Shown here piece by piece: positions 1,200-28,171 of a stretch of DNA of 64,000 bases. The position numbers and the translations under genes are program-made. The notes beneath the pieces were generated by a model that saw only the letters and a list, made by a program, of their open reading frames with translations, was not told the origin of the DNA and searched no databases. The stretch is from Bacillota bacterium (GTDB lineage Bacteria; Bacillota; Clostridia; Christensenellales; WQRI01): positions 15,266-79,265 of the forward strand of contig WQRI01000001.1 of the NCBI GenBank assembly GCA_009786825.1, given 5' to 3'. Numbering within the stretch: position 1 is the first letter of the stretch; the number at the start of each line of letters is the position of its first letter.

Positions 1200-1640
1200 C
1201 TACTGATTAACTGGCGTTGCTTGAGCCAGCCACTCTCTTGTGTAGTCTGGGTTTGTAGAACCGTCTATAAGGTCTGACTTTAGTGTCCAAAAGTCTGCAC
1301 CTGCTAAACTTATAAGTTGTGTTCCGTTTCTTTCATAACTTTGAAACGCGTTTATGTCCGGCGTTGGAAGACCCGACTTAGACTTATTCCCACCCTTGCT
1401 AAGCGCTGTAACTTCTGCAGCCGCGCCACCTGATGTTCCGCCAAATATCATACCGCCCGCGGCTACTGCTAGACCTGCCATTGCTGTGCCTGCGGCTATC
1501 CATTTGGCTGCGTTCCTACTGCCGCCTTCAATGTCTTGCATTTCTGCCGTGTCTGTTTCTTGACCTATTTCTGGTAGAACTAGGTTTTCTGTTTGATTTT
1601 CTGACTGGCTTTTGTTGCCCTTGTTAATTTTGTTACTCAT
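1200..1640 (-). CDS. double-glycine-leader secreted protein (outlier copy); Gly/Ala-rich hydrophobic segment followed by a soluble domain
   Basis: The leader ...NLVLPEIGQETDTAEMQDIEGG|S is the same motif as the 7.5-13.8 kb array. The SD AAGGGGAAAA lies upstream. After GG comes WIAAGTAMAGLAVAAGGMIFGGTSGGAAA. Confidence 0.7.
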   Translation of the reverse strand: MSNKINKGNKSQSENQTENLVLPEIGQETDTAEMQDIEGGSRNAAKWIAAGTAMAGLAVAAGGMIFGGTSGGAAAEVTALSKGGNKSKSGLPTPDINAFQSYERNGTQLISLAGADFWTLKSDLIDGSTNPDYTREWLAQATPVNQ

Positions 1641-3484: not shown

Positions 3485-6400
3485 TCAAACTGCATTTGCT
3501 AGTGCCAAAACAACTTGGTTAAATTCGTCGTCTGATAGCATTTGCAACTCTTTTCTTTGTCTGCCTTTAAAGTTATCTACTATGCGCAGTATATTATCTT
3601 GCGCTTCGAGTTCGTACCTGCCACTTGTAGACTTTACTAGCCTGCTTGTTGCTTTGTTTATAATTGTGTTAAGGCGCGCTGGTGATATTTGTTTGTCTAG
3701 CGCACCATTTTTAAGCGCCTTGTAAAGTTGCGCTGTAATCTCGCCATCTTTAGCAATTTGGTCTGATTCTGCCTTTATCTCGGCTAGCCTATCCGACGTC
3801 TTTTTAGCATCTGCAATTTGTTGCTTAAGCGACTCTACATCTAGTTTTGCTTGTATAATCTCGTCCGTTGTAGCCGTAATATTATACACAAGCCTATCTA
3901 ACTCTTTGCTCTCAATCGCTTTGCCGCGCTTGTTAGGCTTAAGGCTGTCTAACTTAGACTTAACAACCGCCGTCTCAATTTTGTGGCTTTCTATATCTTT
4001 GTTAAGCGCCCTAAGTTCTGCTTGCGATATTATAAAATCTTGTATGCTTTCTATATCCTCAAAGCCCTCGTCCTTTGCCCTTGTTTCTATCTCGCTCTCT
4101 AGCGCTATTAACTCGGCTTCTTTACGCGCTAGGTCTGCCGTGTTAAGCCTTAGTTTTTCGGCTTCTTTCAAGTATGCGTTTTCTGCCTTTGCCCTATCAT
4201 CTTTAAGTTTATTTTCTTTCTCGCTGTTTTTGGTTAGCGTATTTGTTATTGTGATTATCTCTGCGTGTGGTTGTTTGCCCATTATGCCTAGGTTGCGCTT
4301 AAGCACCTGAATCTCATCTATAACAGCCGCCGCTTGCTCGCCGTGCTTTTTTATGTTAGCAAGCTCTAACGCACACTCTGATATGTGGTTGTCGTTTTTA
4401 GCAATATCCAAAAGCAGTTTAGCCCTTAAATCTTCTTGCTCTTTTATTTTGGCTTCTATATCGAAGCGCTGACGCTCAGACTTCTTTATAAGAATATCTG
4501 CATCTTTAGCCGTGCCACCACCAAGCGCATCTGCATACTTATAATACTGCATATTAATCTGCGCGATGTCTGCGTTAAGTTGGCGCGATATTGTAGAGTT
4601 TGTGAATAACTCTTTATTTAAACTGTCTAGTTTTGTCCAGCGCTCTAGGTGGTTTTTCTCGTTTATATGAAGTTCGTTTTTAAGCGCAACGTAAGATGCC
4701 ACAAGGCTTTCTAGTTTTTCTACGCGCTCTGAATACATCTTAAGCGCTTCGTACATCTGCTCTGTATCGCCACCAATGTGCGACCACTTTGTAAGTAGGT
4801 TGTCGCGCTCTAATTCTTTTGCGCTTATAAGCGTTAGGTTGTTGTCTATTTGCCTTTTGTTTTCTTCAGAGCGCGCGGTAAGGGACGCAAACTTCTTTAT
4901 TGCGGCTTCTTTCTTGTGCTGAGTTTGTGATATTTGCGTGCGTAAGTCTTGCAACTCGCTGTCAAACGCTTCAAGCGGTATCATATGCTGTCTTACCGGA
5001 TTTTTTTGAAGCATAGTGCTACACACGGGACAACTATCGCCCTCGTTTAAATTTGCTGTGCGTATAGCAAAAGAATTTTTCTGTAAATAGTCTTCGCGCT
5101 GCATCAACTTAAAGGTAAGTTGTTCTTCTAGCCTTGCTATTGCCGAAGTTGCCGCTTTGTCTTCATCTAACATATCTAGTATTGTGTTAGAGCGCATATC
5201 TATTTTTTCTAGAAGTTTTTCGTTTTGCGAAGTTGTTAGTGCAATTGCATCATTTAGTATTTTAACTGTTGCAATTGCTTTTTCCATTTCGTAAGCCTCT
5301 TTTTGAGCGTTGGTTAATACTATGTGGCGGTCTGCTTTTTCATCTATGTCGTAGAGTTTTTCTATGGCGCTGTCTACGCGGGACAGGTCTGCTTCTATGC
5401 GCTTTACAACTGTTTTAATGGTGTCTATCTCTCTTGTTAGAGAGTTTCTCTGAGCGCCGCGCTTTACATCTTGCGCCTCTATTGCTTTTAGTTGAGCCTC
5501 TAAGTTGTCGCGCTTAATCTCTAACTCCCAAGCCCTTTTAATAGCCTCCATTATCTGCGGTGAGACAACAACCCTATTGTGCGCCGACCTAAGTTCTTTT
5601 AAATAGCGCTCTGACGCGTCTTTAAGTCGTCCGTACTCTGCACGGTTTTTTAACAGCCTTTCGTACTCGGCTTCTTTGTTAGCAAAATCTTTCAGTAAGT
5701 CTTGTCGCCTTTTTAAGTTTATTGCTTCTACTTCTAGGCGCGGAATAAAGTTTTGTATGTGCGCTTTTCTCTCAATTAACTCTATGCTAGTTTGTTTAAG
5801 TTGAGCCTCTCTTTCTAATATTGCTTCGTTTGCTTCTTCCAAGTTTTTTAGCAGTCCATCAAGTTTACTGCCCGCCTCGCTTGATGCTAGCCTATCTTTT
5901 AGCACAGCCCCGCGTAGTTTTTGTAGCCTTTTGCTTAGCGGTGTTAAACTTAAAGCAGCCCTTGCAAGTTTCAGTTTGTCTTCTTTGTCTGTAATATACT
6001 GCCCTTCGTACTCTAATTCTACTTGCCTTTGCGTTAGAATGTCGTAGTTTTCTGTATCTAGCAAAAAACTATTTGCTTTGGTTTTTTCTAAGTCTGCTAA
6101 TTTGCCTTTAAGCGTGCTAACTTCTTTCTCTCTCTCTTTTAGACCACGCTCTAGCGTCCCAATATTTAAAATAGAAAAAGCAGACAAAGCCTTCATCTCA
6201 CCCTCTAACATTGCCTTTTCTGTTTCTTTTTTTAGCATTTTGTCTAGCACATCTGCGCTAAACTCTGACGCGGTTATATTTAGTAGCGTAGCAAGCGTAA
6301 GGCTATCTGCGCCCGCACTCGCACCGATGTTCGCCCCGATATTCGCTTTGTTGTCCGCCCTGTTTTTTTCCCCTACAATGTTTTCTTTACTTTGAACTTT

Positions 6401-7213
6401 CATTTTGTTTGCCTCACCCATTGTATTTACTAGGCTAATATAATTTTTTGTATTGTTTTGTTTGTTTTGTTGGCTCGCTGTAGCATTCTGAGCGTTTTGC
6501 TGTTGCTCTATCTGTTGCCCCTGTGCTTGCTCTATTTGTTGCCCTAACTGTGTTTGTTGCTCTGAGATTGCTTTGTCGTGGTTTTCTTTAATCTCGCTCA
6601 TTCTTTTTTGAAGTTGCTCTAGCGTTGTGTTTTGCTTGCTTTGCACTTCGTTTTGCTGTTCGCTCTGTTGCTCGTTTTGCTGTAGCCCTTGTTGCCCCGC
6701 TTGTTGTCCCCCGTGATGTCCGCCTTGCTGTTCGCTTTGCTGTATGCCTTGTTGCCCCAATTGCTGTGTGCTTTTTTGCCTTTCTTCGTTTATATAATTT
6801 TTAAACTGCTCTCTCGTTTTTCCCAAAACATTTTTTATATACTGGCTTACAAGGCTAGAAGTATTTGCAAGCATAATTCTGCCGTTTTGTTTAATCTCAA
6901 AAAGTTCTGCCCCATACAGCTCGTTTGCCTTTGTTTCGTTTTTCTTTGCCCTGAATATTCGCTCTACCAAAAATGTATATTTGGGTTGCATATGTTGGTC
7001 TGTAACCGAAAAAGTAAAACTAACCCTTGCCGTTTTAGAGCCAGCCTTTACCAAAGTATCTACATCTATCTCGGGCTTCAAGCCATAAAGCGCAAGTTCT
7101 ACACAATTTATAATGCCTTGCGAGAATTCTACAATTCCGCCGTCTCCAAACTCTATTACTTGCTTGCCCTCAAAGCCCACAAGCCCATCTGTTTCTAACC
7201 TCAAACTTCTCAT
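3485..7213 (-). CDS. SbcC/Rad50-like long coiled-coil protein with a CxxC zinc hook and a degenerate ATPase head
   Basis: The N-terminus MRSLRLETDGLVGFEGKQVIEF..GIVEFSQGIINCVELALYG aligns to the SbcC head, but the GPxGxGKT Walker A is missing. A central DSCPVCST hook is flanked by about 1000 aa of heptad-like sequence. The C-terminus ends at LSDDEFNQVVLALANAV (signature-like), with no Walker B or H-loop. There is a Gln-rich tract near the N-terminus. Confidence 0.65.
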   Translation of the reverse strand: MRSLRLETDGLVGFEGKQVIEFGDGGIVEFSQGIINCVELALYGLKPEIDVDTLVKAGSKTARVSFTFSVTDQHMQPKYTFLVERIFRAKKNETKANELYGAELFEIKQNGRIMLANTSSLVSQYIKNVLGKTREQFKNYINEERQKSTQQLGQQGIQQSEQQGGHHGGQQAGQQGLQQNEQQSEQQNEVQSKQNTTLEQLQKRMSEIKENHDKAISEQQTQLGQQIEQAQGQQIEQQQNAQNATASQQNKQNNTKNYISLVNTMGEANKMKVQSKENIVGEKNRADNKANIGANIGASAGADSLTLATLLNITASEFSADVLDKMLKKETEKAMLEGEMKALSAFSILNIGTLERGLKEREKEVSTLKGKLADLEKTKANSFLLDTENYDILTQRQVELEYEGQYITDKEDKLKLARAALSLTPLSKRLQKLRGAVLKDRLASSEAGSKLDGLLKNLEEANEAILEREAQLKQTSIELIERKAHIQNFIPRLEVEAINLKRRQDLLKDFANKEAEYERLLKNRAEYGRLKDASERYLKELRSAHNRVVVSPQIMEAIKRAWELEIKRDNLEAQLKAIEAQDVKRGAQRNSLTREIDTIKTVVKRIEADLSRVDSAIEKLYDIDEKADRHIVLTNAQKEAYEMEKAIATVKILNDAIALTTSQNEKLLEKIDMRSNTILDMLDEDKAATSAIARLEEQLTFKLMQREDYLQKNSFAIRTANLNEGDSCPVCSTMLQKNPVRQHMIPLEAFDSELQDLRTQISQTQHKKEAAIKKFASLTARSEENKRQIDNNLTLISAKELERDNLLTKWSHIGGDTEQMYEALKMYSERVEKLESLVASYVALKNELHINEKNHLERWTKLDSLNKELFTNSTISRQLNADIAQINMQYYKYADALGGGTAKDADILIKKSERQRFDIEAKIKEQEDLRAKLLLDIAKNDNHISECALELANIKKHGEQAAAVIDEIQVLKRNLGIMGKQPHAEIITITNTLTKNSEKENKLKDDRAKAENAYLKEAEKLRLNTADLARKEAELIALESEIETRAKDEGFEDIESIQDFIISQAELRALNKDIESHKIETAVVKSKLDSLKPNKRGKAIESKELDRLVYNITATTDEIIQAKLDVESLKQQIADAKKTSDRLAEIKAESDQIAKDGEITAQLYKALKNGALDKQISPARLNTIINKATSRLVKSTSGRYELEAQDNILRIVDNFKGRQRKELQMLSDDEFNQVVLALANAV

Positions 7214-7350: not shown

Positions 7351-7386
7351 AAAAGGTTTTTTGAAAATTTTTTCAAAAAACCTTTT
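7351..7386. repeat. perfect 17-bp-stem A/T-rich hairpin
   Basis: AAAAGGTTTTTTGAAAA-TT-TTTTCAAAAAACCTTTT. The word flavour is similar to the hairpins at 57475-57504 and 60255-60292. Confidence 0.7.
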
Positions 7387-7518
7387 GTTTTGTCTTTTTA
7401 AAACTCTTTGCTAATTTTCGCTTCGCTAGACCCTTCACTTCGTTCAGGGTGACTACTTAAAATCTTTTACCGCACAAGCGGTCGTAACCATTTAACATTT
7501 AAAACTTAACATTTAAAA

Positions 7519-8244
7519 TTAATAATTCGTATTAATTCTAATATTCGACATTATCCTTAGGTTGTCTATTACAAGTGTTGGTTGAGTTGGTTGTTCTATT
7601 ACTGGTGGTAAGTAGCCCTCACCGTACCCTACAAACTCGCGCGGTTGCGGTGTTATATACGGCTGAGTAATTGGCATACCATCTATTCGCCCGCCGATGT
7701 CTTGCACTTGTTGCGCCATATCTATCATCTGATGTTGAAGCACGCTTACGCTTTCTTGCAACTGTGCTATGTCATTCATCATTGTGTTTATTACGCTTGC
7801 AGACACCCCGTTTTCTACAGAGTTTTCTATTGCCCTTTCTATAACAAGCATTCTGCTCTCTAGTCCCCTTAAATGATATATCTCTTCAGCAGACAAGCCT
7901 TGCCCCGCCGGACCCGCCGGTCCTTGTGGACCCTGCAAGCCTTGAGCGCCCTGTGGCCCTTGCGGACCTTGCGCGCCAGTAGCCCCGTCCGCACCTATTG
8001 CACGCCTACCAGTATTTTGGTCACCAAACCACCAATAGCCCCTATCACAAATGTGCGGCGTTATGCCGTCTGTAACCTGCCCTAAAGTACGCAGCGCCGC
8101 ATCTATTGCGTTTATTCTGTCTAGCAAATATTGCGGACCAACAAGACCCGGACCTATAGTAGACCCACCCTCTATAGTTTGCATCTCGTACTTGTTCATT
8201 TCGCCGCCACTTATTGGCACTATTAAACTTTTTTCGTTATTCAT
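7519..8244 (-). CDS. double-glycine-leader protein with a collagen-like GXY tract and a coiled-coil C-terminal region
   Basis: Leader MNNEKSLIVPISGGEMNKYEMQTIEGG|S. There are 11 GXY triplets (GADGATGAQGPQGPQGAQGLQGPQGPAGPAGQG, nt 7897-7995), preceded by GYWWFGDQNTG. The SD is AAAGGGGA. Confidence 0.8.
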   Translation of the reverse strand: MNNEKSLIVPISGGEMNKYEMQTIEGGSTIGPGLVGPQYLLDRINAIDAALRTLGQVTDGITPHICDRGYWWFGDQNTGRRAIGADGATGAQGPQGPQGAQGLQGPQGPAGPAGQGLSAEEIYHLRGLESRMLVIERAIENSVENGVSASVINTMMNDIAQLQESVSVLQHQMIDMAQQVQDIGGRIDGMPITQPYITPQPREFVGYGEGYLPPVIEQPTQPTLVIDNLRIMSNIRINTNY

Positions 8245-8315
8245 AGCCTAATCCCCTTTATAGTTATTTGTTATTTTTCTGATTTATTACTTAACAAGCT
8301 TATCCGTTGTAGCCG

Positions 8316-8696
8316 TTACCCGTTGTAGCCATTGTAAAATATATCCCCGTGTATTATGCTGTTGTTGTCGCCCCTAAGCCAGCCTGCATCTATAAGTTCT
8401 TGCAACGCCCTATCACCCTCTGGGCTAAACCTACGGCGCACTTCGCCCGGTTGCTCTCTTTCTAATAGTCTAAAATTGCCCATATCAAAACCCGGCGGTG
8501 TCGCTACCGGCGTACCCGCTCGCCCGCCTAGCAATCTGTAAAGCCCTTCACCCGCAAGCATACCTAGGCTTCCAATTGCAAGCCCGCCCGCAATTATCAA
8601 GCCAGTAGCAAGCGCGCCACCTTCTATATACTGAATTTCATTTTCGTTTGTTTGTATGCCCCCCGTTGGCAATACTAACCCTTTGTTTTGTGTCAT
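8316..8696 (-). CDS. double-glycine-leader protein; GxxxG-rich hydrophobic helix plus a soluble tail
   Basis: Leader MTQNKGLVLPTGGIQTNENEIQYIEGG|A, then LATGLIIAGGLAIGSLGMLAGEG. The SD is GGGGGGA. Confidence 0.8.
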   Translation of the reverse strand: MTQNKGLVLPTGGIQTNENEIQYIEGGALATGLIIAGGLAIGSLGMLAGEGLYRLLGGRAGTPVATPPGFDMGNFRLLEREQPGEVRRRFSPEGDRALQELIDAGWLRGDNNSIIHGDIFYNGYNG

Positions 8697-8835
8697 AAAT
8701 CTATTCCCCCCGATGTAGTTTCATATTAAATATTTCTTTTCTGTTCCTTCTTTTCTGCCAAAGCCACAACTCACCATTAATGTTCTAAGTTATGTTGAGA
8801 CTGGTCGCTTATCCCTGAACGCTGACCCCTACCCT

Positions 8836-9261
8836 TTAGGGATAAGCTATACTTGTCCCCGGTAGTGCTGCGCGCATTACATTTGTTGCAGAGCGCGAGT
8901 CCATAACCACACGGCTTCCGCCACCCGCATTACAAGTTGTTATTCCGCCCCCGCCCGTAGCCCTTAAAACTTGTATAGGTTTTATGGTTAAAGAATATGT
9001 GTCTGCCGGCGCGTGATAAGGCAGTAAGTGTTGTAGGCTGTTTCCGCGAAGCGCGTCCGCTAAGCTGCCCCCATAAGTAGAAATCGTAACAGACTGCCAG
9101 CCATTTGCACCGCCAACCCTTTTTACATTAACACCCGTAGGCGCTAAACTAAATATGGCGTTAAACAGTTCTGCAGAGCCACCGCCCGTTAAGTACTGCG
9201 CCTCACACTCACTTACTTGCCGCCCGCTTGGCAAAATTAACCTTGTTTGTACTTTATCCAT
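8836..9261 (-). CDS. double-glycine-leader protein, cargo family 2
   Basis: Leader MDKVQTRLILPSGRQVSECEAQYLTGGG|S. The cargo shares L.Q/ALRG..L..L and other blocks with the genes at 9901 and 10988. Confidence 0.8.
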   Translation of the reverse strand: MDKVQTRLILPSGRQVSECEAQYLTGGGSAELFNAIFSLAPTGVNVKRVGGANGWQSVTISTYGGSLADALRGNSLQHLLPYHAPADTYSLTIKPIQVLRATGGGGITTCNAGGGSRVVMDSRSATNVMRAALPGTSIAYP

Positions 9262-9317
9262 TTTAAAATTCCCCTTCCGTTTTGTATCTCTTATCTTTTA
9301 TCTTTTATATTTCTCTC

Positions 9318-9695
9318 TTACCTGCGCCTATGGTGTTCCGGTAAAATAGTCCAACTGTCTGGCGTTAGCGGTGTTGTTGTATAGCCCGCGCATACCGGCT
9401 TACAAATAACAGCCGGCGCCGGTGCAGGTCTGTAATAAAACCGCGGAGAAACAACCAAGTTTGGTGGCTGTATAACTTCTACAGTTCTGTTAAGATATGC
9501 CCTAAAGTTTTCGCCCGTAAGCCCCGCATACACACCACCACCCGCAACATCTACACTACCGCCTATCGCATCTACGTATATGCTTTCTGTAATTTCTAAA
9601 TTGCGTATAGATATTCCGCTATTTCCGCCCTCTATGTATTGAAGCATTTCTGCATCTATCTCTCTACCACTCGGCAGTATTAAATTGTTACCCAT
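9318..9695 (-). CDS. double-glycine-leader protein, cargo family 3
   Basis: Start moved to MGNNLILPSGREIDAEMLQYIEGG|NS (SD AAGGGG). The cargo SGISIRNLEITE...VDVAGGGV is paralogous to the gene at 10437 (SGITIRNIEIME...VQVGGAGV). Confidence 0.8.
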   Translation of the reverse strand: MGNNLILPSGREIDAEMLQYIEGGNSGISIRNLEITESIYVDAIGGSVDVAGGGVYAGLTGENFRAYLNRTVEVIQPPNLVVSPRFYYRPAPAPAVICKPVCAGYTTTPLTPDSWTILPEHHRRR

Positions 9696-9710
9696 ATTAA
9701 CCCCTTTTTT

Positions 9711-9897
9711 AAAATTACAAATTACAGTGTACAAATTACAAATATTTAACTCATTATTACCGCAACATTTGAACATCTCAGCGTTAGAAATTTTTATTAG
9801 TTTTATTATGTTAAATTATCAATTTGTAACTGTTCAAGCGCTTGGCATTTAGTGAGTTCAACATTTGTACATTGTAATTTGTTATTTGTTATTTGTT
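9711..9897. repeat. intergenic hairpin element, TGTACAAATTACAA arm flavour
   Basis: Left arm AAAATTACAAATTACAGTGTACAAATTACAAAT; right arm ACATTTGTACATTGTAATTTGTTATTTGTTATTTG. The interior contains ACTGTTCAAGCGCTTGGCA (core 2). Confidence 0.7.
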
Positions 9898-9900
9898 CAA

Positions 9901-10323
9901 CTACCTAAGCCCTAGCAAAGTAGAAGCCCACGCACAAGTCATATACCACCTACCCGGCGTAGAACCTGCGCCCGCCCTTACTGTACCGCTTGCGTGCGCC
10001 GAATACGGAACAATAACTAAAGTATGAATACCCCTAAGCAAATTGCCATTATGGTTTAAGCTACCAAGTGGTGTGCCTGCAAGTTGTTGCGCTAGCCCGC
10101 CCGGCGCATTTGTGCTTAGAGTTACAAAATTTATATCAGCGTTTGGTCGTAAGTCTGCAAACGAAGATACACCCGATAAACTAGCCCCGTGGCTTTGCAA
10201 GGTTGAACCTACTCTGTTTACTACGTTGCCCCAGTTAGCACAACCGCCTATTACATATTGCATTTGATTATATTCTATTTGGTTGCCACTATTTGGCACT
10301 ACTAATTTAGATACGTTTCTCAT
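9901..10323 (-). CDS. double-glycine-leader protein, cargo family 2
   Basis: Leader MRNVSKLVVPNSGNQIEYNQMQYVIGG|C. The cargo contains GGLAQQLAGTPLGSL (compare MFAGTPLSRL in the gene at 10988). Confidence 0.8.
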   Translation of the reverse strand: MRNVSKLVVPNSGNQIEYNQMQYVIGGCANWGNVVNRVGSTLQSHGASLSGVSSFADLRPNADINFVTLSTNAPGGLAQQLAGTPLGSLNHNGNLLRGIHTLVIVPYSAHASGTVRAGAGSTPGRWYMTCAWASTLLGLR

Positions 10324-10340
10324 TCTAAATTTCCCCCTGT

Positions 10341-10430
10341 GTAAATGTTCAATTTTAAATTTTCAATGTTAAATTATTGCGCGCTAGCGATGAAACCATT
10401 AAACATTTAACATTTACAATTTAACATTTT
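10341..10430. repeat. intergenic hairpin element (short form), TAAATGTTAAAT arm flavour
   Basis: GTAAATGTTCAATTTTAAATTTTCAATGTTAAATT - ATTGCGCGCTAGCGATGAAACC - ATTAAACATTTAACATTTACAATTTAACATTTT. Confidence 0.75.
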
Positions 10431-10436
10431 AAGACT

Positions 10437-10859
10437 TTATCTTGCCCAATTTATAGTACCCGGCGCTGCATTTCTGCCCGCGTATGTTCTGTACCACAAA
10501 TTAGTTGGTGTACAAACTGCCGCAACCGCTCTAGACGGCACTTGTACCGCTGGCTGTCTTACTGCCGCGTTAAAAGTAATTACTGGTTGAACCACTTGCG
10601 TTGCGCGTGGCGCTACATTTACTGTTCTCTCAACCCCTATTCTAAGCGTTCCACACGCTTGTAAAAAGTCTACGCTAACCCCCGCGCCACCAACCTGAAC
10701 ATTCATTCCTGGCGCGTTAATATCTAGGTCTTCCATTATTTCTATGTTGCGTATAGTTATGCCACTGCCGCCCTCTATGTACTGCATTTCGTTTACGCAG
10801 AGTTCGCTTCCCGTTGGTAGAACAAGCGCCCCCCATTCATTTTGCTTAACTTTTTGCAT
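10437..10859 (-). CDS. double-glycine-leader protein, cargo family 3
   Basis: Leader MQKVKQNEWGALVLPTGSELCVNEMQYIEGG|S. The SD is AAGGGGGA. Confidence 0.8.
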   Translation of the reverse strand: MQKVKQNEWGALVLPTGSELCVNEMQYIEGGSGITIRNIEIMEDLDINAPGMNVQVGGAGVSVDFLQACGTLRIGVERTVNVAPRATQVVQPVITFNAAVRQPAVQVPSRAVAAVCTPTNLWYRTYAGRNAAPGTINWAR

Positions 10860-10987
10860 AAGTTGTATCCCCCTTATCTAGTTTGTTTGTTTTGGGTATG
10901 TTAAATATTTTTTTAAGTTTGCCCCTTAAGTTTGCTCTTTCCCTATAAGCATTCTGTGGTTACTGCCTCTGTTACCACTTTACTCTA

Positions 10988-11371
10988 TTACCTTGTTATC
11001 CACATAAAAGTGTCGCCCCTAGAAACCACGCCCGCAGCCCTATCTGCGCGTATGTTTAAAACGCCCGGAGCATCAATTCTGCCCCTTGCTGCAGTATAAA
11101 TATTAAGTTTTTGGACTGAGCCTAGATTTTCTGGTGGCATAAGCCTTGATAGCGGTGTACCCGCAAACATTTGCTGTAGGCTGATAGATTGGTCGGGCGA
11201 CTCGACCGTTATTGTCGCACCGTGAGACGGTGTAAAGCCACGCGTGTGGTTACCTAAATAATTAATTGTTTGAACAACTTCCGTATACCAACTTCCGCCG
11301 ATAATGTTTTGTTGCTCAGACAAACTGGCTTCTCTGCCCTCTTGTGGCAAAACCAAATTAGATTTTTGCAT
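10988..11371 (-). CDS. double-glycine-leader protein, cargo family 2
   Basis: Leader MQKSNLVLPQEGREASLSEQQNIIGG|S. The SD is AAAAGGGGAAG. Confidence 0.8.
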   Translation of the reverse strand: MQKSNLVLPQEGREASLSEQQNIIGGSWYTEVVQTINYLGNHTRGFTPSHGATITVESPDQSISLQQMFAGTPLSRLMPPENLGSVQKLNIYTAARGRIDAPGVLNIRADRAAGVVSRGDTFMWITR

Positions 11372-11676
11372 TTTTTCTTCCCCTTTTTGTTTTGTTATAT
11401 GTGCCTAGCGCCCCGCATCTCAGTTTTAGGTTTTCCAGTTTTCGTTTTTAAAGCCCTACCTTTTAAGCGCCACTCGTATTATATATTATATGTGTTTGCT
11501 TCGCGTTTGATTAATTTTTATGCGTTTGTTCATAAATTTGCCGTGTCTGCAATTTTTATGTAACAAAGAAAGCCCATCTTTCAATAAATGAAAATAATGC
11601 ACAAGACTTTTGCCCCCTTAGCATAAACCTTGTACATTATTTTAACATATTTTACTAAATTTAGCAAGTGTTTTTT

Positions 11677-11710
11677 ACAATTTTAACAAATTTTTATTTG
11701 TTAAAATTGT
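11677..11710. promoter_or_regulatory. 34-bp perfect palindrome (candidate operator) inside the array's only long gap
   Basis: ACAATTTTAACAAA-TTTTTA-TTTGTTAAAATTGT (14-bp arms). Confidence 0.35.
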
Positions 11711-11760
11711 TAATAGTTTTTTAACAATTGCAGAAAGCGCCTATTAGAAAAAATTACAAA

Positions 11761-11789
11761 GGGCGGCTTCATATTTTCTGAAGCCGCCC
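11761..11789 (-). terminator. rho-independent terminator after the gene at 11877-12209
   Basis: GGGCGGCTTC-loop-GAAGCCGCCC, followed on the minus strand by TTTGTAATTTTTT. Confidence 0.7.
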
Positions 11790-11876
11790 ATTGTATTTTT
11801 TGTAATTTTGTTTTTTAGTATTTGCGTTTTTTTGGTGATACTAATTTGTTTTTAAGTTCTTAGTATGATGTTTGCT

Positions 11877-12209
11877 TTAGCGCCTTGTAATTGGGCTTAG
11901 AGTTCCGTTTTGGTATATCCAGCCGTCTTCGTTTCTTGTTGCTATTCTGTGGGCGTGTAGAATATTGCCCTCGCCATCGAACCTTGCGTGCATTAATTGC
12001 GCCCCGCGCCAGTCTCTTATTACGTGTGAGGCTCTGCCTGCTTGGTTTACCGCCCAGCCAGGTCTTCTGTTTGCTTTGTCTGATAGGCGTTCCCACTCTG
12101 CTGCTACAAAGTTGCTTACTTCATTACTTCCGCCCTCTAACTCTTGCATTGCGTACTCATCAAGTTCTTCGCCAAACTCTGGCAAGTGTAATTTAAATTT
12201 CCTAGACAT
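11877..12209 (-). CDS. double-glycine-leader protein, cargo family 4
   Basis: Start moved to MSRKFKLHLPEFGEELDEYAMQELEGG|S (SD AGGGGAGGA). The cargo block FVAAEWERLSDKA..PGW is paralogous to the next three genes. Confidence 0.8.
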   Translation of the reverse strand: MSRKFKLHLPEFGEELDEYAMQELEGGSNEVSNFVAAEWERLSDKANRRPGWAVNQAGRASHVIRDWRGAQLMHARFDGEGNILHAHRIATRNEDGWIYQNGTLSPITRR

Positions 12210-12365
12210 AATATGTCCTCCCCTTTTGGATATGTAAATTCTTTTACACACCCAGCATTTTATAAATATTTTTGTTATTTACTTTAATTTTGTGGTAGGC
12301 TTATTTTAGCCCAACTATAAATTAACCTAACTATCTATTAAACTAACTATCAATTCAACTATCCG

Positions 12366-12704
12366 TTAGTTGAAATTTGGTGGTTGCAATGTAAACTTAC
12401 CATTAGAGTAAGCCCAACTCTCTTTTTTGTTGCTGTATTTTGTGGCGTTTAAAATGCGCCCGCTCTCGTTTGCAATTGCTTTAAACATAAGCCCTTTTTC
12501 ATCTTTAATAGAGGTTTTAATCTCACCCCAAACTTCATCGTGGTCTACAGAAAGTGTCCAACCGCTGTTGCTCTTCGCCGCCGCGCTAAGCCTTGTAAAC
12601 TCTGCCATTACAAAAGCACTATCGCACCCACCTACCACTTGTTGCATTTGTGAGTTTTGCATTTCCTTTCCCTCTTTTGGCAAAACCAAATTTGTTTTTT
12701 CCAT
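12366..12704 (-). CDS. double-glycine-leader protein, cargo family 4
   Basis: Start moved to MEKTNLVLPKEGKEMQNSQMQQVVGG|C (SD CAGGGGGAA). Cargo block FVMAEFTRLSAAAKSNSGW. Confidence 0.8.
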   Translation of the reverse strand: MEKTNLVLPKEGKEMQNSQMQQVVGGCDSAFVMAEFTRLSAAAKSNSGWTLSVDHDEVWGEIKTSIKDEKGLMFKAIANESGRILNATKYSNKKESWAYSNGKFTLQPPNFN

Positions 12705-12888
12705 AAGTAATTCCCCCTGACACATTATCTTAAAATATTTTGTTTAATATTATCAGTTCTAAGTTGTGTTGAATGATGGTGCGCAGGTACGTAAATTTTT
12801 TGACCTTGTGACTACGCCCGCACGCACACTGCTGAATGCTACCTTAAAACTGCGGAGGCACTCAGACAAAAAATTTACATATCAAGCA

Positions 12889-13239
12889 CTAGACATTGGT
12901 TGTTGGCGTAAACTGCCCATCTACATATATCCAGTTTTGTTTTGCGTTGCTTTGCTTTTTGCTGTTGCGCATTTGCGCGCTTATAACACAGCCCGAGTCT
13001 GTGCTTCTATGTATACCAAACATAAAGCCTTTGCCATCTTGAATTTGTGTGTGGACAGTAGCCCCGCCAAAAAACATTTTTCTATCTATGCTCCAGCCGT
13101 CTGTATTTGATGCTATCTCGCTTAGTCGAAGGTATTCAGACACTACGTAAGCATCACTTCCCCCTTCTACCCTTTGCATTTGCTTGTTACTTAATTCTTT
13201 ACCCAAGTTTGGTAAAATCAAATTAGTTGTTTTAGACAT
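12889..13239 (-). CDS. double-glycine-leader protein, cargo family 4
   Basis: Leader MSKTTNLILPNLGKELSNKQMQRVEGG|S. Cargo block YVVSEYLRLSEIASNTDGW ... VISAQMRNSKKQSNAKQNW. Confidence 0.8.
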   Translation of the reverse strand: MSKTTNLILPNLGKELSNKQMQRVEGGSDAYVVSEYLRLSEIASNTDGWSIDRKMFFGGATVHTQIQDGKGFMFGIHRSTDSGCVISAQMRNSKKQSNAKQNWIYVDGQFTPTTNV

Positions 13240-13442
13240 AATTTTTCCCCTTGTTTTTTTCGTGTACGTAAACGAATGCCTTACGCCCTTTTATTTGTTT
13301 TTTCGTTTTTTCTTATTTTGTTTTTTCTCGTACGTAAACGAATGCTTTACGTTTTTGTTTTAGTTATTTGTTTTGTGACTTAATCTTTACGTTTTAGGTT
13401 TTGATTTCTGTTTGTTTTTCGAAGTTGCCTATATAAGATAAC

Positions 13443-13790
13443 CTACATAGGTGTTACAATAAACGAGCCGCCTAAGTAATCCCAATTTTGATTAACATCG
13501 CTTGGCTTACTTGCGTTTACCATTTGTGCGCTTACTACATCGCCATTTTTGCTACACGTTTGCATACTAAATAAAAAACTTTTTCCATCACTTATTTCTG
13601 TATGCACAATGTTGCCCCTAGAAGTTGTAACCTTGTCGAATCTCCAGCCCGGCGTATTTACAGCAACTTCACTAAGCCTTGCGTACTCTGCCGTAATAAA
13701 ACTGCTATCGCTTCCGCCACTTATGCCCTCTAGTTGCGTATCACTTACTTCTCGCCCGCCCTCTGGTAAAATTAAATTAGTTTTTTCCAT
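13443..13790 (-). CDS. double-glycine-leader protein, cargo family 4 (first gene of the array)
   Basis: Leader MEKTNLILPEGGREVSDTQLEGISGG|S. Cargo block FITAEYARLSEVAVNTPGW ... VVSAQMVNASKPSDVNQNW. Confidence 0.8.
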   Translation of the reverse strand: MEKTNLILPEGGREVSDTQLEGISGGSDSSFITAEYARLSEVAVNTPGWRFDKVTTSRGNIVHTEISDGKSFLFSMQTCSKNGDVVSAQMVNASKPSDVNQNWDYLGGSFIVTPM

Positions 13791-13919: not shown

Positions 13920-14043
13920 CTGTTTTTAACAACTTTTTCATATTTTTTCACATTTTTTTCACAACTATTTTCTTGTGCTATTCTTGCCTGTTAAAACCAA
14001 ATCTCTAAAACTACCGGCTTAATGAAAATTATTTGTTAACTTA

Positions 14044-14104: not shown

Positions 14105-14365
14105 ATGAAAACAAACAAAAAACAATTTGCAAACGACCTTAAGCAACTTATGGCTAGTTATAGTATTACAAACTCTGACTTGGTAACAATTATTAAAACT
14201 AGTCTACTGACTTCCGACGAGGCTGAACTTTTATCTATTTTGCAAGATGAAACTTTTAACGAATTTTTGCTTGCTAAGGCAGAAAAGGGTATACACGACT
14301 TCGAGCTTGGTAAATATGTAGAATACTCGTTTGATTCTTTAAATGAGAGGTACGGTATTAAATAA
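14105..14365 (+). CDS. putative antitoxin of the ParE-family toxin
   Basis: An 86-aa acidic protein. Its stop overlaps the toxin ATG (TAATG). This is a position-based call. Confidence 0.55.
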   Translation: MKTNKKQFANDLKQLMASYSITNSDLVTIIKTSLLTSDEAELLSILQDETFNEFLLAKAEKGIHDFELGKYVEYSFDSLNERYGIK

Positions 14366-14691
14366 TGAAGCAAACTGTATTAACAGACGAAGCCCTTGCC
14401 GACATAGATAGCATTTATAACTACATTGCTTTAGACAGCGTAAATATTGCCTCTAAGCAAGTTACAAAAATTAACCTACAAATAAAAAAAGTTTCTGAAA
14501 ACCCAAACATCTATCCTATTGTGGAAGGGCATTCTGATAGGTTTGAAAATTTGAGAAAGTCGGTAATAAACCCATACATTATTTTATTTGATAACAGAGC
14601 CGATTTAATTGTTATAGTGGGCGTTGTTCATACAAAGCGAGATTACAAAAAGATATCAAAACAAAGAAAAACGCCAAAACAGTATACATAA
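14365..14691 (+). CDS. type II toxin, RelE/ParE family (ParE-like)
   Basis: LTDEALADIDSIYNYIALDS...A...V..I...I..VSENPNIYP ... VIVGVVHTKRDY is the typical ParE layout. Confidence 0.7.
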   Translation: MKQTVLTDEALADIDSIYNYIALDSVNIASKQVTKINLQIKKVSENPNIYPIVEGHSDRFENLRKSVINPYIILFDNRADLIVIVGVVHTKRDYKKISKQRKTPKQYT

Positions 14692-26053: not shown

Positions 26054-26332
26054 CTACCTAAACTCTATGTGCAACGTTTTGCCTATGCCGTTAGCAACCT
26101 TGTGCAAAAACTGTACAGATGGGTTATATTCCCCCGTCTCTAGTTTGCTAATCAGGCTTTGGTCTATGCCTATTTTTTCTGCAAATTGTTTTTGTGTTAG
26201 ACTTAGGTCGTGCCTAATCGCATTAATGTGAATGCCCAACTGCAAACTCTGCATCTCTTGCTCGTAACCTGCCCTAAATTCCGGACACTCTAAAAGCCTT
26301 GCTCTATGTTTTTCATAATTAGTCATATTCAT
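26054..26332 (-). CDS. XRE-family HTH antitoxin (HigA-like)
   Basis: LSLTQKQFAEKIGIDQSLISKLETGEYNPSVQFLHKVA is an HTH_3-type motif. The gene overlaps the upstream toxin by 14 nt. Confidence 0.75.
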   Translation of the reverse strand: MNMTNYEKHRARLLECPEFRAGYEQEMQSLQLGIHINAIRHDLSLTQKQFAEKIGIDQSLISKLETGEYNPSVQFLHKVANGIGKTLHIEFR

Positions 26333-26672
26333 ACCTCCTTTTATAATCTTCTCTATAAATTTTTGCTTTCTCTATTTCTTGCCTTGGCACCTTATTTGTT
26401 TTTTTAACGAAGCCATTTGTGAGTATAATTTTAGAGCCTGTGTAAAAAAAATATAGCACCCTAGCGTGATTTGTGGAAAACTGTATTCTTAACTCAAAAA
26501 TCCCATCTTCCAAATGCTTACTTTTTGGCTCACCCAATCTGTTCCCAAGCATTTTAAGCGCGTCTATTGTTGCAATTGCTTTCTTTTTTAATTTATCATC
26601 AAGTTCGTAATCTATGAACTTCTCTACAGGGCTTTCACCGCTATCTTTTTCGTAGTATTCAATTTTCCACAT
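26319..26672 (-). CDS. type II toxin, RelE/ParE superfamily (Gp49/HigB-like)
   Basis: The pattern MWKIEYYEKDSGESPVEKFI ... DGIFELRIQFSTNHARVLYFFYTGSKIILTNGFVKKT. Start chosen at the Met 7 nt downstream of a consensus -10 element. Confidence 0.75.
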   Translation of the reverse strand: MWKIEYYEKDSGESPVEKFIDYELDDKLKKKAIATIDALKMLGNRLGEPKSKHLEDGIFELRIQFSTNHARVLYFFYTGSKIILTNGFVKKTNKVPRQEIEKAKIYREDYKRRYEYD

Positions 26673-26678
26673 ACTAAT

Positions 26679-26707
26679 ATTATAATGCATTATAATACAT
26701 ATGTCAA
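26679..26707 (-). promoter_or_regulatory. consensus sigma-A promoter giving a probably leaderless higB-like mRNA
   Basis: The minus strand reads TTGACA-17 nt-TATAAT-ATTAGT-ATG (ATG at 26672), with no SD. Confidence 0.6.
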
Positions 26708-26784
26708 CCCCTTTTGCAATATTTTTTAAAAATTATGATTTGGTGTTCTGCTTGTGCTTAATACAGAAAAATTGTCAATGCGTG

Positions 26785-26949: not shown

Positions 26950-26960
26950 AAGAGTTGTTA

Positions 26961-28046: not shown

Positions 28047-28171
28047 ACGATATCCTCTCAAAATTCAAACACAACAATAGATTTCTACTGTTATAATTAT
28101 ATCATATATCCACCATTGTTGCAAGCAAAATAATGCAAAAAAGGCATTCCGTTTTGGTTGGAATGCCTTTT

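What the first reader, a model, noticed from the sequence alone, without database searches (positions are those of the whole stretch)
7519..13790. Eleven-gene tandem array of proteins sharing a canonical double-glycine export leader but carrying large, heterogeneous cargo
Eleven consecutive minus-strand genes each have their own strong SD (AGGGG(G)A). Each starts with a 24-31-aa leader that ends in GG:
- MNNEKSLIVPISGGEMNKYEMQTIEGG
- MTQNKGLVLPTGGIQTNENEIQYIEGG
- MDKVQTRLILPSGRQVSECEAQYLTGGG
- MGNNLILPSGREIDAEMLQYIEGG
- MRNVSKLVVPNSGNQIEYNQMQYVIGG
- MQKVKQNEWGALVLPTGSELCVNEMQYIEGG
- MQKSNLVLPQEGREASLSEQQNIIGG
- MSRKFKLHLPEFGEELDEYAMQELEGG
- MEKTNLVLPKEGKEMQNSQMQQVVGG
- MSKTTNLILPNLGKELSNKQMQRVEGG
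- MEKTNLILPEGGREVSDTQLEGISGG

The last 8 residues fit the class II bacteriocin/PCAT leader rule: hydrophobic at -4 and -7, Glu at -8, often hydrophobic at -12, and GG at -2/-1. The upstream L(V/I)LP..G.E block is an extra conserved feature.

The cargos are 90-215 aa, much larger than typical bacteriocins. They fall into at least four unrelated families:
- four paralogues at 11877-13790;
- three at 8836, 9901 and 10988;
- two at 9318 and 10437;
- one collagen-like protein and one GxxxG-helix protein.

No C39 peptidase-ABC exporter, accessory protein, immunity gene, modification enzyme or quorum two-component system lies in the 64 kb. This looks like a dedicated secretome cassette or effector arsenal using a leader-guided export route, and I do not recognise it as a described system.
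Basis: partly seen in the sequence, partly recalled or inferred. Interest (0 to 1): 0.9.

Follow-up and report, generated by a model that had tools for sequence, protein, structure and literature searches.

The report
Double-glycine export leader on many proteins
A spore-forming termite-gut-type Firmicute carries about 29 genes (12 in this window) whose unrelated products share one extended double-glycine export leader of the bacteriocin/PCAT type, on cargos far larger than usual and with no transporter nearby, which points to a genome-wide leader-guided secretion set rather than a bacteriocin cluster.

Summary
Eleven minus-strand genes at 7519-13790, each with an AGGGG Shine-Dalgarno site, carry a 24-31-aa leader ending in GG. 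A twelfth member lies at 1200-1640. A leader DNA pattern hits 12 times against 0.01 expected.

Across 30 leaders, L-21, P-18, G-15, G-2 and G-1 are invariant. Positions -12/-8/-7/-4 fit the published PCAT consensus L(-12)xxxE(-8)L(-7)xxxxGG. Pairwise identity is 47% in the leader and 8% just after GG.

An exhaustive HMMER census of 1.84 billion proteins finds only about 11 further representatives. Several carry the same MAG's locus tags (FWB72). One genome therefore holds about 29 such genes at 11 or more loci, with cargos of 46-523 aa.

About 143 kb of that genome shows no C39 peptidase or PCAT, no immunity genes and no modification enzymes.

Best reading (about 0.55): these are orphan substrates of a dedicated PCAT encoded elsewhere. 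The L-V-L-P block at -21..-18 would act as a specificity motif, as in pneumococcal RtgAB. Cargo functions are unknown.

The claimed G3/G5/G7 family is not demonstrable. This is a new variant of a known kind.

The parts
1200..1640 (-). G0, a twelfth leader-bearing gene outside the reported span. It has a 40-aa leader (…NLVLPEIGQETDTAEMQDIEGG), then a Gly-rich TM-like helix and a soluble tail. It looks monocistronic, with its own SD, a promoter-like site and a terminator hairpin.
   Evidence: Found by DNA pattern; translation; leader HMM 48.3 bits; TM-like segment KD19 1.78; signals read; NCBI locus tag FWB72_00085.
7519..8244 (-). G1: 27-aa leader plus 214-aa cargo. The cargo has a short collagen-like GXY tract (residues about 83-116), a predicted coiled coil and a Pro-rich C-terminus.
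   Evidence: Collagen PF01391 E 1e-4, below cutoff. PHROG tail-fibre and BclA matches are confined to residues about 83-116.
8316..8696 (-). G2: 27-aa leader, a GxxxG-rich TM-like helix directly after GG, and a soluble tail.
   Evidence: KD19 1.91 at residue 2 of the cargo.
8836..9261 (-). G3: leader (GGG end) plus 113/114-aa soluble Gly-rich cargo; an orphan.
   Evidence: not joined to G5/G7.
9318..9695 (-). G4: 24-aa leader plus 101-aa beta-rich cargo; paralogue of G6. The true start is at 9695 (SD AAGGGG upstream), not the longer ORF start at 9776.
   Evidence: (G4-G6 E 3e-10).
9901..10323 (-). G5: 27-aa leader plus 113-aa soluble cargo; marginal similarity to G7.
10437..10859 (-). G6: 31-aa leader plus 109-aa beta-rich cargo; paralogue of G4.
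   Evidence: The AF2 model is all-beta but has pLDDT 41, so it is unusable.
10988..11371 (-). G7: 26-aa leader plus 101-aa soluble cargo. First gene of the G7-G1 transcription unit.
11877..12209 (-). G8: 27-aa leader plus 83-aa cargo; family A. Last gene of the G11-G8 unit.
   Evidence: FWB72_00135.
12366..12704 (-). G9: 26-aa leader plus 86-aa cargo; family A.
   Evidence: FWB72_00140.
12889..13239 (-). G10: 27-aa leader plus 89-aa cargo; family A. Its isolated leader passes the TIGR01847 cutoff (18.0 vs 15.7 bits).
13443..13790 (-). G11: 26-aa leader plus 89-aa cargo; family A. The low-confidence model shows one helix plus a six-stranded antiparallel sheet.
   Evidence: pLDDT 59.8; no fold match.
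11761..11789 (-). Intrinsic terminator after G8 (11-bp stem, 8 GC pairs, T tail). It splits the array into two units.
   Evidence: inverted repeat I6.
7351..7386 (-). Terminator-like hairpin after G1 (16-bp stem plus T tail), marking the end of the array.
   Evidence: I10.
11639..11667 (-). Sigma-70-like promoter candidate for G7-G1 (TTGCTA-17-TAAAAT with TG). It is followed by a leader of about 270 nt that begins with a 19-bp hairpin and a U tract.
   Evidence: consensus match and fold only; not evidence of function.
13967..13994 (-). Weak sigma-70-like promoter candidate upstream of G11.
   Evidence: 9 of 12 match; the region's promoter count is not above shuffles.

Best explanation
The twelve window genes belong to a set of about 29 genes in one genome (MAG 'Firmicutes bacterium' FWB72, a spore-former from termite-gut-type metagenomes). 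All encode pre-proteins with one modular, extended double-glycine leader.

Inferred mechanism. The C-terminal half of the leader, [LMIV](-12)-x3-[EQ](-8)-M(-7)-Q-x-[IV](-4)-[ED]-G-G, forms the short amphipathic helix that docks on the C39 peptidase domain of a peptidase-containing ABC transporter (PCAT). The peptidase cuts after GG, and the cargo is threaded out through the ABC cavity without using Sec.

The extra invariant block, L(-21)-[VI]-L-P(-18)…G(-15)-x-E(-13), is a specificity module. It ties this substrate pool to one dedicated PCAT encoded elsewhere in the genome, as the -22..-18 motif does for pneumococcal RtgAB.

Cargo classes. One class is hydrophobic Gly-zipper peptides and proteins that look like class II bacteriocins or microcins; these are mostly at other loci, plus G0 and G2 here. 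The other class, concentrated in this array, is soluble 83-214-aa proteins of at least four to five unrelated families, including a collagen-like protein with a predicted coiled coil.

What is shown: the genes, the leader, its statistics, its rarity, its genome-wide distribution and the lack of a linked transporter. What is inferred: cleavage, the PCAT itself, export and any cargo function.
For: - Leader reality and modularity. There are 12 pattern hits against 0.01 expected. Over 30 leaders, L-21, P-18, G-15, G-2 and G-1 are invariant; -4 is I/V/L in 30/30, -7 is M/I/L in 27/30, -8 is E/Q in 28/30 and -12 is hydrophobic in 27/30. Pairwise identity is 47% for -21..-1 and 8.4% for +1..+21.
- Match to the published consensus L(-12)xxxE(-8)L(-7)xxxxG(-2)G(-1), with a helix at -10..-4 (PMC6959990).
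- Curated models. The only NCBIfam hits of isolated leaders are GG-cleaved leader families (TIGR01847 in 8/30 with one above cutoff; the NHLP leader's C-terminal end; TIGR04149; cerein 7B). Bacteriocin_IIc is the sole, sub-threshold, Pfam hit for G4, P0017, P0018, P0021 and P0024.
- One leader on unrelated cargos. There are at least five cargo groups in the window and cargos of 46-523 aa across the genome.
- Same-genome spread. FWB72 locus tags occur on G0, G8-G11, P0020, P0023 and P0025. Tetranucleotide r is 0.92-0.98 between the window and seven of the eight Ga0209755 loci, and 0.82 for the 1.8-kb L116.
- Precedents. RtgAB selects substrates through a leader motif at -22..-18 including Pro(-18), and orphan GG peptides are recognised (PMC7018657). 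EbfG/PteB shows GG proteins with non-antibiotic roles.
- In another MAG the same leader precedes a hydrophobic 92-aa cargo, followed by a 220-aa multi-pass membrane ORF, which is a bacteriocin/immunity-like arrangement (L036).
Against: - No C39 peptidase or PCAT was found in the window, in about 17 kb of flanks, or in about 62 kb of other loci of the same genome. Whether the genome has one at all could not be tested.
- Cargo size. Secretion through the best-studied PCAT (MccV CvaAB) drops abruptly at 116 aa (PMC10231218), and PCAT1's cargo is 66 aa. Here cargos reach 214 aa in the window and 523 aa elsewhere.
- Position -15 is an invariant Gly, where ComAB/BlpAB substrates have a conserved residue implicated in recognition (PMC7018657).
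- No full-length protein passes any curated GG-leader or bacteriocin cutoff.
- No immunity-like ORFs lie between the array genes, which argues against a self-toxic bacteriocin arsenal.
- The organism sporulates (YabQ, GerA, SipL, YunB). One cargo is collagen-like, as BclA-type spore-surface proteins are, and two leader loci abut sporulation genes. A spore-surface tag is therefore not excluded.
Confidence: 0.55

Rival explanations
1. The leader is a targeting and processing tag for a spore-surface or other extracellular assembly (exosporium, coat or appendage), analogous to the cleaved N-terminal domain of BclA-type collagen-like proteins. The array would encode structural subunits deposited during sporulation, not PCAT substrates.
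For: The organism has sporulation and germination genes (Spore_YabQ and GerA; SipL and YunB beside leader genes in L111 and L114). G1 has a collagen-like tract whose best solved-structure sequence match is BclA. The cargos are small beta-rich proteins without enzymatic signatures. No exporter is nearby.
Against: - The BclA match is only the GXY repeat (residues 83-120).
- The leader does not resemble the BclA N-terminal motif (from memory LVGPTLPPIPP; not tested by a model).
- The leader's -12/-8/-7/-4/GG pattern is that of PCAT substrates.
- Most leader-bearing cargos in the genome are hydrophobic Gly-zipper, bacteriocin-like peptides, which is atypical for coat proteins.
- The candidate promoters are sigma-70-like, although that scan is weak.
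- Adjacency to sipL and yunB occurs at 2 of 11 or more loci, the rest being housekeeping, so it is likely coincidence.
Confidence: 0.12
2. The genes are a bacteriocin or antagonistic-effector arsenal in the strict sense. Every cargo would be a toxin exported by a PCAT to kill competitors. This is a functional sub-case of the best explanation.
For: - GG leader.
- Sub-threshold Bacteriocin_IIc hits.
- Many Gly-rich hydrophobic cargos reminiscent of class II bacteriocins and microcins.
- The L036 arrangement with a downstream membrane ORF.
- Tandem paralogue expansion.
- A dense gut community as habitat.
Against: - Nine of the eleven array cargos are soluble with no TM-like segment.
- There are no immunity candidates in any intergenic gap.
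- The array is identical in the samples shown, with no cassette turnover seen.
- Collagen-like and 523-aa coiled-coil cargos do not look like toxins.
- There are no matches to any toxin family.
Confidence: 0.2
3. The proteins are RiPP-like precursors. The conserved N-terminal block (LVLP…G.E) would be a recognition sequence for a modifying enzyme, with GG the later cleavage site.
For: Weak hits of isolated leaders to RiPP leader models: NHLP, TIGR04149, grasp-with-spasm and ATP-grasp targets. The pattern of one conserved leader with hypervariable cores at many unlinked loci resembles prochlorosins (own knowledge).
Against: - The cargos are 83-523 aa, several with predicted secondary structure in low-confidence models, not short cores.
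- No radical-SAM, LanM, ATP-grasp or YcaO gene lies next to any leader gene in the loci examined. The only radical-SAM-like ORF, in L117, is about 4 kb upstream of the leader gene and was judged by eye only.
- All RiPP-model hits are far below cutoff and map to the GG end.
Confidence: 0.04
4. The leader is a pro-sequence removed inside the cell by some other protease (not C39), or not removed at all. The TM-helix cargos would be signal-anchored membrane proteins inserted by Sec/YidC, so there is no dedicated exporter.
For: No PCAT was found. Basic residues often precede the TM-like helix after GG, consistent with an N-in anchor. The genome has a normal signal peptidase I and hence Sec.
Against: Soluble cargos without any hydrophobic segment (G3-G11) carry the same leader. 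The leader's conserved positions coincide with the C39-binding consensus. Type IV prepilin-type sites (G/FTLxE with Glu+5) are absent, by inspection.
Confidence: 0.09

Closest known systems
Double-glycine leader peptides of PCAT substrates (class II bacteriocins, ComC/BlpC, PCAT1-CtA; NCBIfam TIGR01847)
   Same: An N-terminal leader of 24-31 aa (40 in G0) ending in GG. It has hydrophobic -12, E/Q -8, M/L -7 and I/V -4, and an acidic -3 is common. It is modular on unrelated cargos. One isolated leader passes the TIGR01847 cutoff.
   Different: - An extra invariant L-[VI]-L-P at -21..-18, and invariant G-15 and E-13.
- Cargos of 83-523 aa instead of roughly 20-90 aa.
- About 29 substrates per genome.
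- No linked transporter, accessory, immunity or regulator genes.
Pneumococcal Rtg system (RtgAB PCAT and rtg GG peptides; PMC7018657)
   Same: A family of GG substrates shares a highly conserved signal sequence. An N-terminal motif at -22..-18, including Pro(-18), directs them to one particular PCAT and keeps them off others. Here the conserved block occupies -21..-18 with an invariant Pro(-18).
   Different: - The rtg peptides sit in one operon with rtgAB and an Rgg/SHP regulator; here the genes are dispersed and unlinked.
- The Rtg motif sequence could not be read from the text, so sequence similarity of the motifs is untested.
- The organisms and cargos are unrelated.
EbfG1-4 / PteB of Synechococcus elongatus (PMC4997328)
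   Same: Small proteins with a GG secretion motif have a non-antibiotic role (biofilm development), showing that GG leaders are not restricted to bacteriocins.
   Different: That system has four proteins; per the paper they depend on a dedicated peptidase-transporter, PteB (role recalled, not read here). It is cyanobacterial and lacks the LVLP block.
Prochlorosin-type precursor families (many unlinked genes, one conserved leader, hypervariable cores; own knowledge, not tested here)
   Same: Genome-wide dispersal of some dozens of genes that share a leader ending in GG, all serviced by one unlinked processing and export apparatus.
   Different: Those are RiPPs with long NHLP/Nif11 leaders and short cores modified by LanM. 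Here the leaders are short, the cargos are protein-sized and no maturase was seen.
BclA-type collagen-like exosporium proteins
   Same: G1 has a cleavable-looking N-terminal tag followed by a collagen-like tract, in a spore-former.
   Different: Only the GXY repeat matches. The N-terminal motif is different. Eleven other proteins with the same tag have no collagen tract.

Membership tests
Double-glycine (PCAT-type) leader peptide | N-terminal extension of about 15-30 aa ending in Gly-Gly (or GA/GS), directly followed by the mature part | tested here: met
   30/30 leaders end in GG. Conservation falls from 47% to 8% identity across the GG boundary.
Double-glycine (PCAT-type) leader peptide | Consensus L(-12)xxxE(-8)L(-7)xxxxG(-2)G(-1) with hydrophobic -4 (PMC6959990) | tested here: met
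   -12 is L/M/I/V in 27/30; -8 is E/Q in 28/30; -7 is M/I/L in 27/30; -4 is I/V/L in 30/30.
Double-glycine (PCAT-type) leader peptide | Hydrophobic residue at -15 (ComAB/BlpAB-type recognition) | tested here: not met
   -15 is Gly in 30/30. RtgAB substrates also depend little on -15.
Double-glycine (PCAT-type) leader peptide | Score above the curated cutoff of TIGR01847 (bacteriocin-type signal) | tested here: inconclusive
   Full-length G10 scores 14.7 against a cutoff of 15.7. The isolated G10 leader scores 18.0, above the cutoff, and 8/30 isolated leaders reach E<=1.
Double-glycine (PCAT-type) leader peptide | A cognate C39 peptidase-ABC transporter encoded next to the substrate genes | tested here: not met
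   None in the 64-kb window, in about 17 kb of flanks, or in eight other loci of the genome.
Double-glycine (PCAT-type) leader peptide | A C39 peptidase/PCAT present anywhere in the genome | not testable with these tools
   The rest of MAG FWB72 could not be read, and the homologue and collection searches were exhausted.
Double-glycine (PCAT-type) leader peptide | Cleavage after GG and ATP-dependent export of the cargo | not testable with these tools
   Needs biochemistry or proteomics.
Class II bacteriocins (Pfam Bacteriocin_IIc and relatives) | Profile match above the gathering score; a small cationic membrane-active mature peptide | tested here: not met
   The best Bacteriocin_IIc scores are 13.6-16.9 bits against a cutoff of 27.1. 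Nine of the eleven array cargos have no TM-like segment.
Class II bacteriocins (Pfam Bacteriocin_IIc and relatives) | An adjacent immunity gene | tested here: not met
   There is no ORF of 25 aa or more on the coding strand in any intergenic gap of the array. Only L036, in another MAG, has a downstream membrane ORF.
BclA-type exosporium proteins | Collagen-like region plus a BclA-type C-terminal domain and the N-terminal exosporium-targeting motif | tested here: not met
   Only G1 has a GXY tract, and the matches to BclA and phage fibres are limited to residues 83-120. The N-terminal motif comparison is by memory only.
RiPP precursors with GG-cleaved leaders (NHLP, TIGR04149, grasp-with-spasm) | Model match above cutoff, a short core peptide, and a neighbouring maturase | tested here: not met
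   The G10 leader scores 15.1 and 14.9 bits against cutoffs of 50.9 and 25 for NHLP and TIGR04149; the other RiPP models give only weak E-values. The cargos are 83-523 aa. No maturase lies beside any leader gene in the loci examined.
Type IV pilin / class III signal peptides | Short basic leader, G/(F,M)TLxE site with Glu+5, then an about 20-aa hydrophobic helix | tested here: not met
   The leaders are acidic and 24-40 aa long with no Glu+5, and nine array cargos lack any hydrophobic helix. The NCBIfam CPR Pam-pilin hit to G5 has E 0.068, which is chance level.

The most novel reading that the evidence does not exclude
The extended GG leader defines a general, Sec-independent protein-sorting route in a spore-forming gut Clostridium. 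A dedicated C39-peptidase ABC machine, or an unknown machine that reads the L-V-L-P…G.E…GG signal, would process and deliver about 30 unrelated proteins of up to 523 aa. These include a collagen-like fibre protein, coiled-coil proteins and Gly-zipper membrane proteins, delivered to the cell or spore surface or the medium. That would be far beyond the roughly 100-aa cargo range documented for PCATs.
Probability: 0.25. Interest if true: 0.75.

Novelty: new variant of a known kind. Interest (0 to 1): 0.55.

Why it matters
PCATs are regarded as exporters of peptides and very small proteins, and published work on MccV shows secretion collapsing near 116 aa. A natural genome that places one GG leader on about 29 proteins of 46-523 aa would show one of two things. 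Either some PCATs act as general protein secretion systems in Gram-positive bacteria, or GG-type leaders have been recruited by a different sorting machine.

The system also offers a clean natural test of the idea that motifs upstream of -18 encode PCAT-substrate specificity. So far that idea rests, in the paper read here, on the single case of RtgAB.

In practice, a leader-exporter pair that tolerates 20-60-kDa cargos would be useful for Sec-independent protein secretion. If instead the proteins turn out to be ordinary unlinked bacteriocin-like peptides plus a few odd cargos, the finding is a modest extension of known biology.

Tried and rejected
1. Homologue search with the family A alignment returned only the four window genes themselves.
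2. A leader-only profile against the word-indexed 5.8-billion database gave 29 candidates and none scored. An earlier attempt failed on query length and E-value limits.
3. A chimeric concatenated query, meant to register G0-G7 and the census hits for context look-ups, failed. 
4. The genome-collection scan used a pattern that was too loose. I should have used the ATG-CAR-tightened pattern, which gave 8 true loci of 9 in metagenomes and none in viral contigs.
5. I first read the Ga0209755 loci as a related organism and L117 as syntenic with the window. Both readings were withdrawn: the loci share MAG locus tags and composition with the window, L117's 745-aa protein is not GS-III, and its ParE is only a paralogue.
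6. Structure prediction gave pLDDT 59.8 for family A and 41.4 for G4/G6. No fold assignment is made.
7. The 'Pam pilus' lead (NCBIfam hit E 0.068 on G5) was rejected as chance.
8. PHROGs and PDB sequence searches matched only the collagen repeat of G1, plus spurious protein A matches to family A.
9. Rfam at a permissive threshold found nothing but terminator look-alikes.
10. The look-up of aroQ with the TTG start failed because the called start was wrong.

Full report
**1. The observation**

For three of them (G4, G8, G9) the biologically sensible start is an internal ATG at 9695, 12209 and 12704.

Every start has a GGGG(A) Shine-Dalgarno site 6-10 nt upstream (sequence read). Metagenome gene callers call the same eleven genes; two samples are shown and three further contigs have the same neighbours.

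A degenerate DNA pattern for G-x-[EQ]-x6-[EQ]-x-(NTN codon)-x-G-G occurs 12 times in the window against 0.01 expected from shuffles. The longer pattern that includes L-[IV]-[LV]-P occurs 8 times against 0 expected.

It has a 40-aa leader, its own SD, a promoter-like site and a terminator hairpin. It is separated from the array by proS and a 1242-aa coiled-coil gene.

**2. Anatomy of the leader**

I aligned 30 leaders: 12 from the window, 13 from the other loci of the same genome, P0023 and P0025 (same MAG), and three from other sources.

- L(-21), P(-18), G(-15), G(-2) and G(-1) are invariant.
- -20 is V/I in 28/30 and -19 is L in 28/30.
- -13 is E in 27/30 and -12 is L/M/I/V in 27/30.
- -8 is E/Q in 28/30, -7 is M in 23/30 and -6 is Q in 26/30.
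- -4 is I/V/L in 30/30 and -3 is E/D in 23/30.

Mean pairwise identity is 47% over -21..-1 and 8.4% over +1..+21. This is a sharp modular boundary at GG.

The last 12 residues reproduce the published PCAT consensus L(-12)xxxE(-8)L(-7)xxxxG(-2)G(-1). In the PCAT1-CtA structure, positions -10..-4 of that consensus form the helix that docks on the C39 domain (PMC6959990).

Against curated models, full-length proteins give only sub-threshold hits (TIGR01847 at 14.7 against 15.7 bits, TIGR04149, Bacteriocin_IIc). Scanned alone, the G10 leader passes TIGR01847 (18.0 bits) and 8/30 leaders match it at E<=1. Every other family hit is also a GG-cleaved leader family.

The upstream block is extra. Its position, -21..-18 with Pro at -18, coincides with the only published case of a distal specificity motif. 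That case is the -22..-18 motif, including P(-18), that directs rtg GG peptides to RtgAB and away from ComAB/BlpAB (PMC7018657). The Rtg motif sequence itself could not be read, so this is a positional parallel and not a homology claim.

**3. The cargos**

Mature parts are 83-214 aa in the window.

| Group | Genes | Support |
|---|---|---|
| Family A | G8-G11 | E 2e-5 to 8e-27 |
| G4/G6 | G4, G6 | E 3e-10; 41% identity over the full-length proteins, leader included |
| G5/G7 | G5, G7 | marginal (0.046) |
| G3 | G3 | not linked to G5/G7 (E 0.1 against their profile) |

The claimed three-member family is therefore not demonstrated.

G1 has a short collagen tract followed by a predicted coiled coil. 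All of its database matches (phage tail fibres, BclA) are confined to the GXY repeat. G0 and G2 start with a Gly-zipper TM-like helix.

No cargo matches any Pfam, NCBIfam or PHROG family otherwise. The AlphaFold models are of low confidence: family A has pLDDT 59.8 and shows one helix plus a six-stranded sheet, and G4/G6 has pLDDT 41 and is all-beta. Foldseek against the PDB finds nothing. No fold or function is assigned.

**4. Context in the window**

The array is flanked by housekeeping genes: aroQ, proS, a DAG-kinase-like gene, type III glutamine synthetase, guaA, purF, purA, purB and purC. A ParDE-like pair lies upstream.

An intrinsic terminator after G8 (11761-11789) and another after G1 (7351-7386) divide the array into two units, G11-G8 and G7-G1. 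No ORF of 25 aa or more lies on the coding strand between the genes, so there are no immunity candidates.

All larger ORFs of the window were scanned. There is no Peptidase_C39, no HlyD/ComB-type accessory protein, no histidine kinase or response regulator and no RiPP maturase. The ABC pair at 37-41 kb is MsbA-like, and its alignment to PCAT models starts after the peptidase domain. About 8.8 kb and 7.2 kb beyond the two window ends add nothing relevant.

**5. Distribution**

Family A has no homologue other than itself in 5.8 billion proteins.

An exhaustive HMMER search with the 28-position leader profile over 1.84 billion cluster representatives gives 29 hits at E<=0.001. These are the 12 window genes, 11 further proteins with a single N-terminal match, and 6 repeat artefacts.

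A tightened DNA pattern finds eight loci in one JGI metagenome and none in viral contigs. A local leader HMM finds 15 leader genes in those loci.

These loci turned out to belong to the same genome as the window. P0020, P0023 and P0025 carry FWB72 locus tags, like G0 and G8-G11. Tetranucleotide correlation with the window is 0.92-0.98 for seven of the loci and 0.82 for the 1.8-kb L116. My interim 'related organism / synteny' reading was wrong and is withdrawn.

One MAG therefore has about 29 leader genes at 11 or more loci. They occur in groups of 1-4, apart from this array, among genes such as hrcA-grpE-dnaK-dnaJ and ackA as judged from ORF starts, and Pfam-confirmed sipL and yunB. None is next to a transporter.

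Cargos range from 46 to 523 aa. P0020 has a TM helix and a long coiled coil.

Outside the window, 16 of 21 cargos have a Gly-rich TM-like helix and look like class II bacteriocins or microcins. The array concentrates the soluble cargos: 9 of its 11 have no TM-like segment.

Two other termite-type Clostridiales MAGs have single members (P0018/L036 and P0021). In L036 the gene is followed by a 220-aa multi-pass membrane ORF, an immunity-like arrangement.

**6. Most likely mechanism**

The simplest account is that these are 'orphan' substrates of a dedicated PCAT encoded elsewhere. The distal L-V-L-P/G-x-E block would serve as the specificity element and GG as the cleavage site. The features behind this are:

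- A conserved, modular N-terminal signal on unrelated cargos.
- The -12/-8/-7/-4/GG pattern.
- Hits only to GG-leader models.
- Bacteriocin-like cargos elsewhere in the genome.

I put this at about 0.55.

The main weaknesses are these. No C39 protein was seen in about 143 kb, and the rest of the genome could not be searched. The cargo sizes exceed what is documented: MccV CvaAB secretion drops sharply at 116 aa (PMC10231218), and CtA's cargo is 66 aa.

The rivals are:
- a spore- or cell-surface targeting tag, given the sporulation genes, the collagen-like G1 and the two loci beside sipL and yunB;
- a strict bacteriocin arsenal, weakened by the soluble cargos and the absence of immunity genes;
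- RiPP precursors, unlikely given cargo size and the absence of maturases;
- a non-C39 pro-sequence on Sec/YidC-inserted proteins.

**7. Comparison with known systems and novelty**

It works like a GG-leader/PCAT substrate family. Membership in the GG-leader class is met for the defining sequence features. It is inconclusive against the curated cutoff, not met for transporter linkage, and untestable for cleavage and export.

The closest specific precedents are these:
- RtgAB, for a distal specificity motif with Pro-18 and for orphan substrates.
- EbfG/PteB, for non-antibiotic GG proteins.
- Prochlorosin-type leader families, for many unlinked genes sharing one leader (own knowledge).

What is new is the combination: a rare, lineage-restricted extended leader; about 29 substrates in one genome; and protein-sized, partly structural-looking cargos. 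I rate it a new variant of a known kind, with interest 0.55.

Scan the complete FWB72 genome for C39 domains, then test cleavage and export of leader fusions.

Noticed in passing
window 3485-7213 (-): A 1242-aa coiled-coil protein sits between G0/proS and the array. Its N- and C-termini resemble SbcC/Rad50 heads but the Walker A motif is degenerate. It has a CPVC zinc-hook-like motif mid-protein and a long Gln-rich low-complexity insert. There is no SbcD partner nearby. It has no Pfam hit and only faint NCBIfam SMC/SbcC hits.
   Followed up: partly
window 28364-33760 (-): A 1798-aa ORF with no Pfam or NCBIfam match at E<=0.001. It is one of the largest genes in the window and is completely unannotatable.
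   Followed up: partly
window 14105-14691 (+); L117 8534-8869: A ParD/ParE-like toxin-antitoxin pair lies directly upstream of G11. A 55%-identical ParE paralogue sits directly upstream of another leader gene (P0020) at a different locus of the same genome. This could be coincidence or a recurrent association.
   Followed up: partly
window 13255-13374: Two copies of a 54-nt direct repeat lie between G11 and G10. Each contains a hairpin (ACGTAAACGAATGC[C/T]TTACG). They may be RNA processing or stability elements inside the G11-G8 operon.
   Followed up: no
window about 11590-11645 (-): The 5' end of the putative G7-G1 transcript folds into a 19-bp hairpin followed by a U-rich tract. The whole 274-nt leader has z = -2.9 against shuffles. 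This could be an attenuator; there is no Rfam match.
   Followed up: partly
window 7419-7453, 10398-10429, 48738-48772, 41436-41619; L111, L117, L118, L119: Short (29-186 nt) intergenic sequences are repeated at 88-100% identity between the window and other loci of the same genome. This looks like a REP-like dispersed repeat family.
   Followed up: no
window 53285-53576 (+): tRNA-Ile(GAT) and tRNA-Ala(TGC) are adjacent, as in rRNA operon spacers, but no rRNA is detected anywhere in the window.
   Followed up: no
window 26319-28061 (-): A Gp49/HigB-like toxin-family gene and a YhcG-type PDDEXK nuclease (DUF1016) sit between the purine genes and the 1798-aa ORF. This may be a small mobile or defence islet.
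   Followed up: no
L119 8051-12462: About 7 kb from a leader gene (P0017) lie an FtsK/SpoIIIE-family ATPase fragment and several small helical proteins, reminiscent of a type VII secretion locus. No link to the leader genes was established.
   Followed up: partly
L113 2595-3539: Two adjacent leader proteins end in the same 15-aa C-terminal peptide (…GNSTGYSPNQIW). Several Gly-zipper cargos have Gly/Ser/Tyr-rich tails reminiscent of class II microcins.
   Followed up: no
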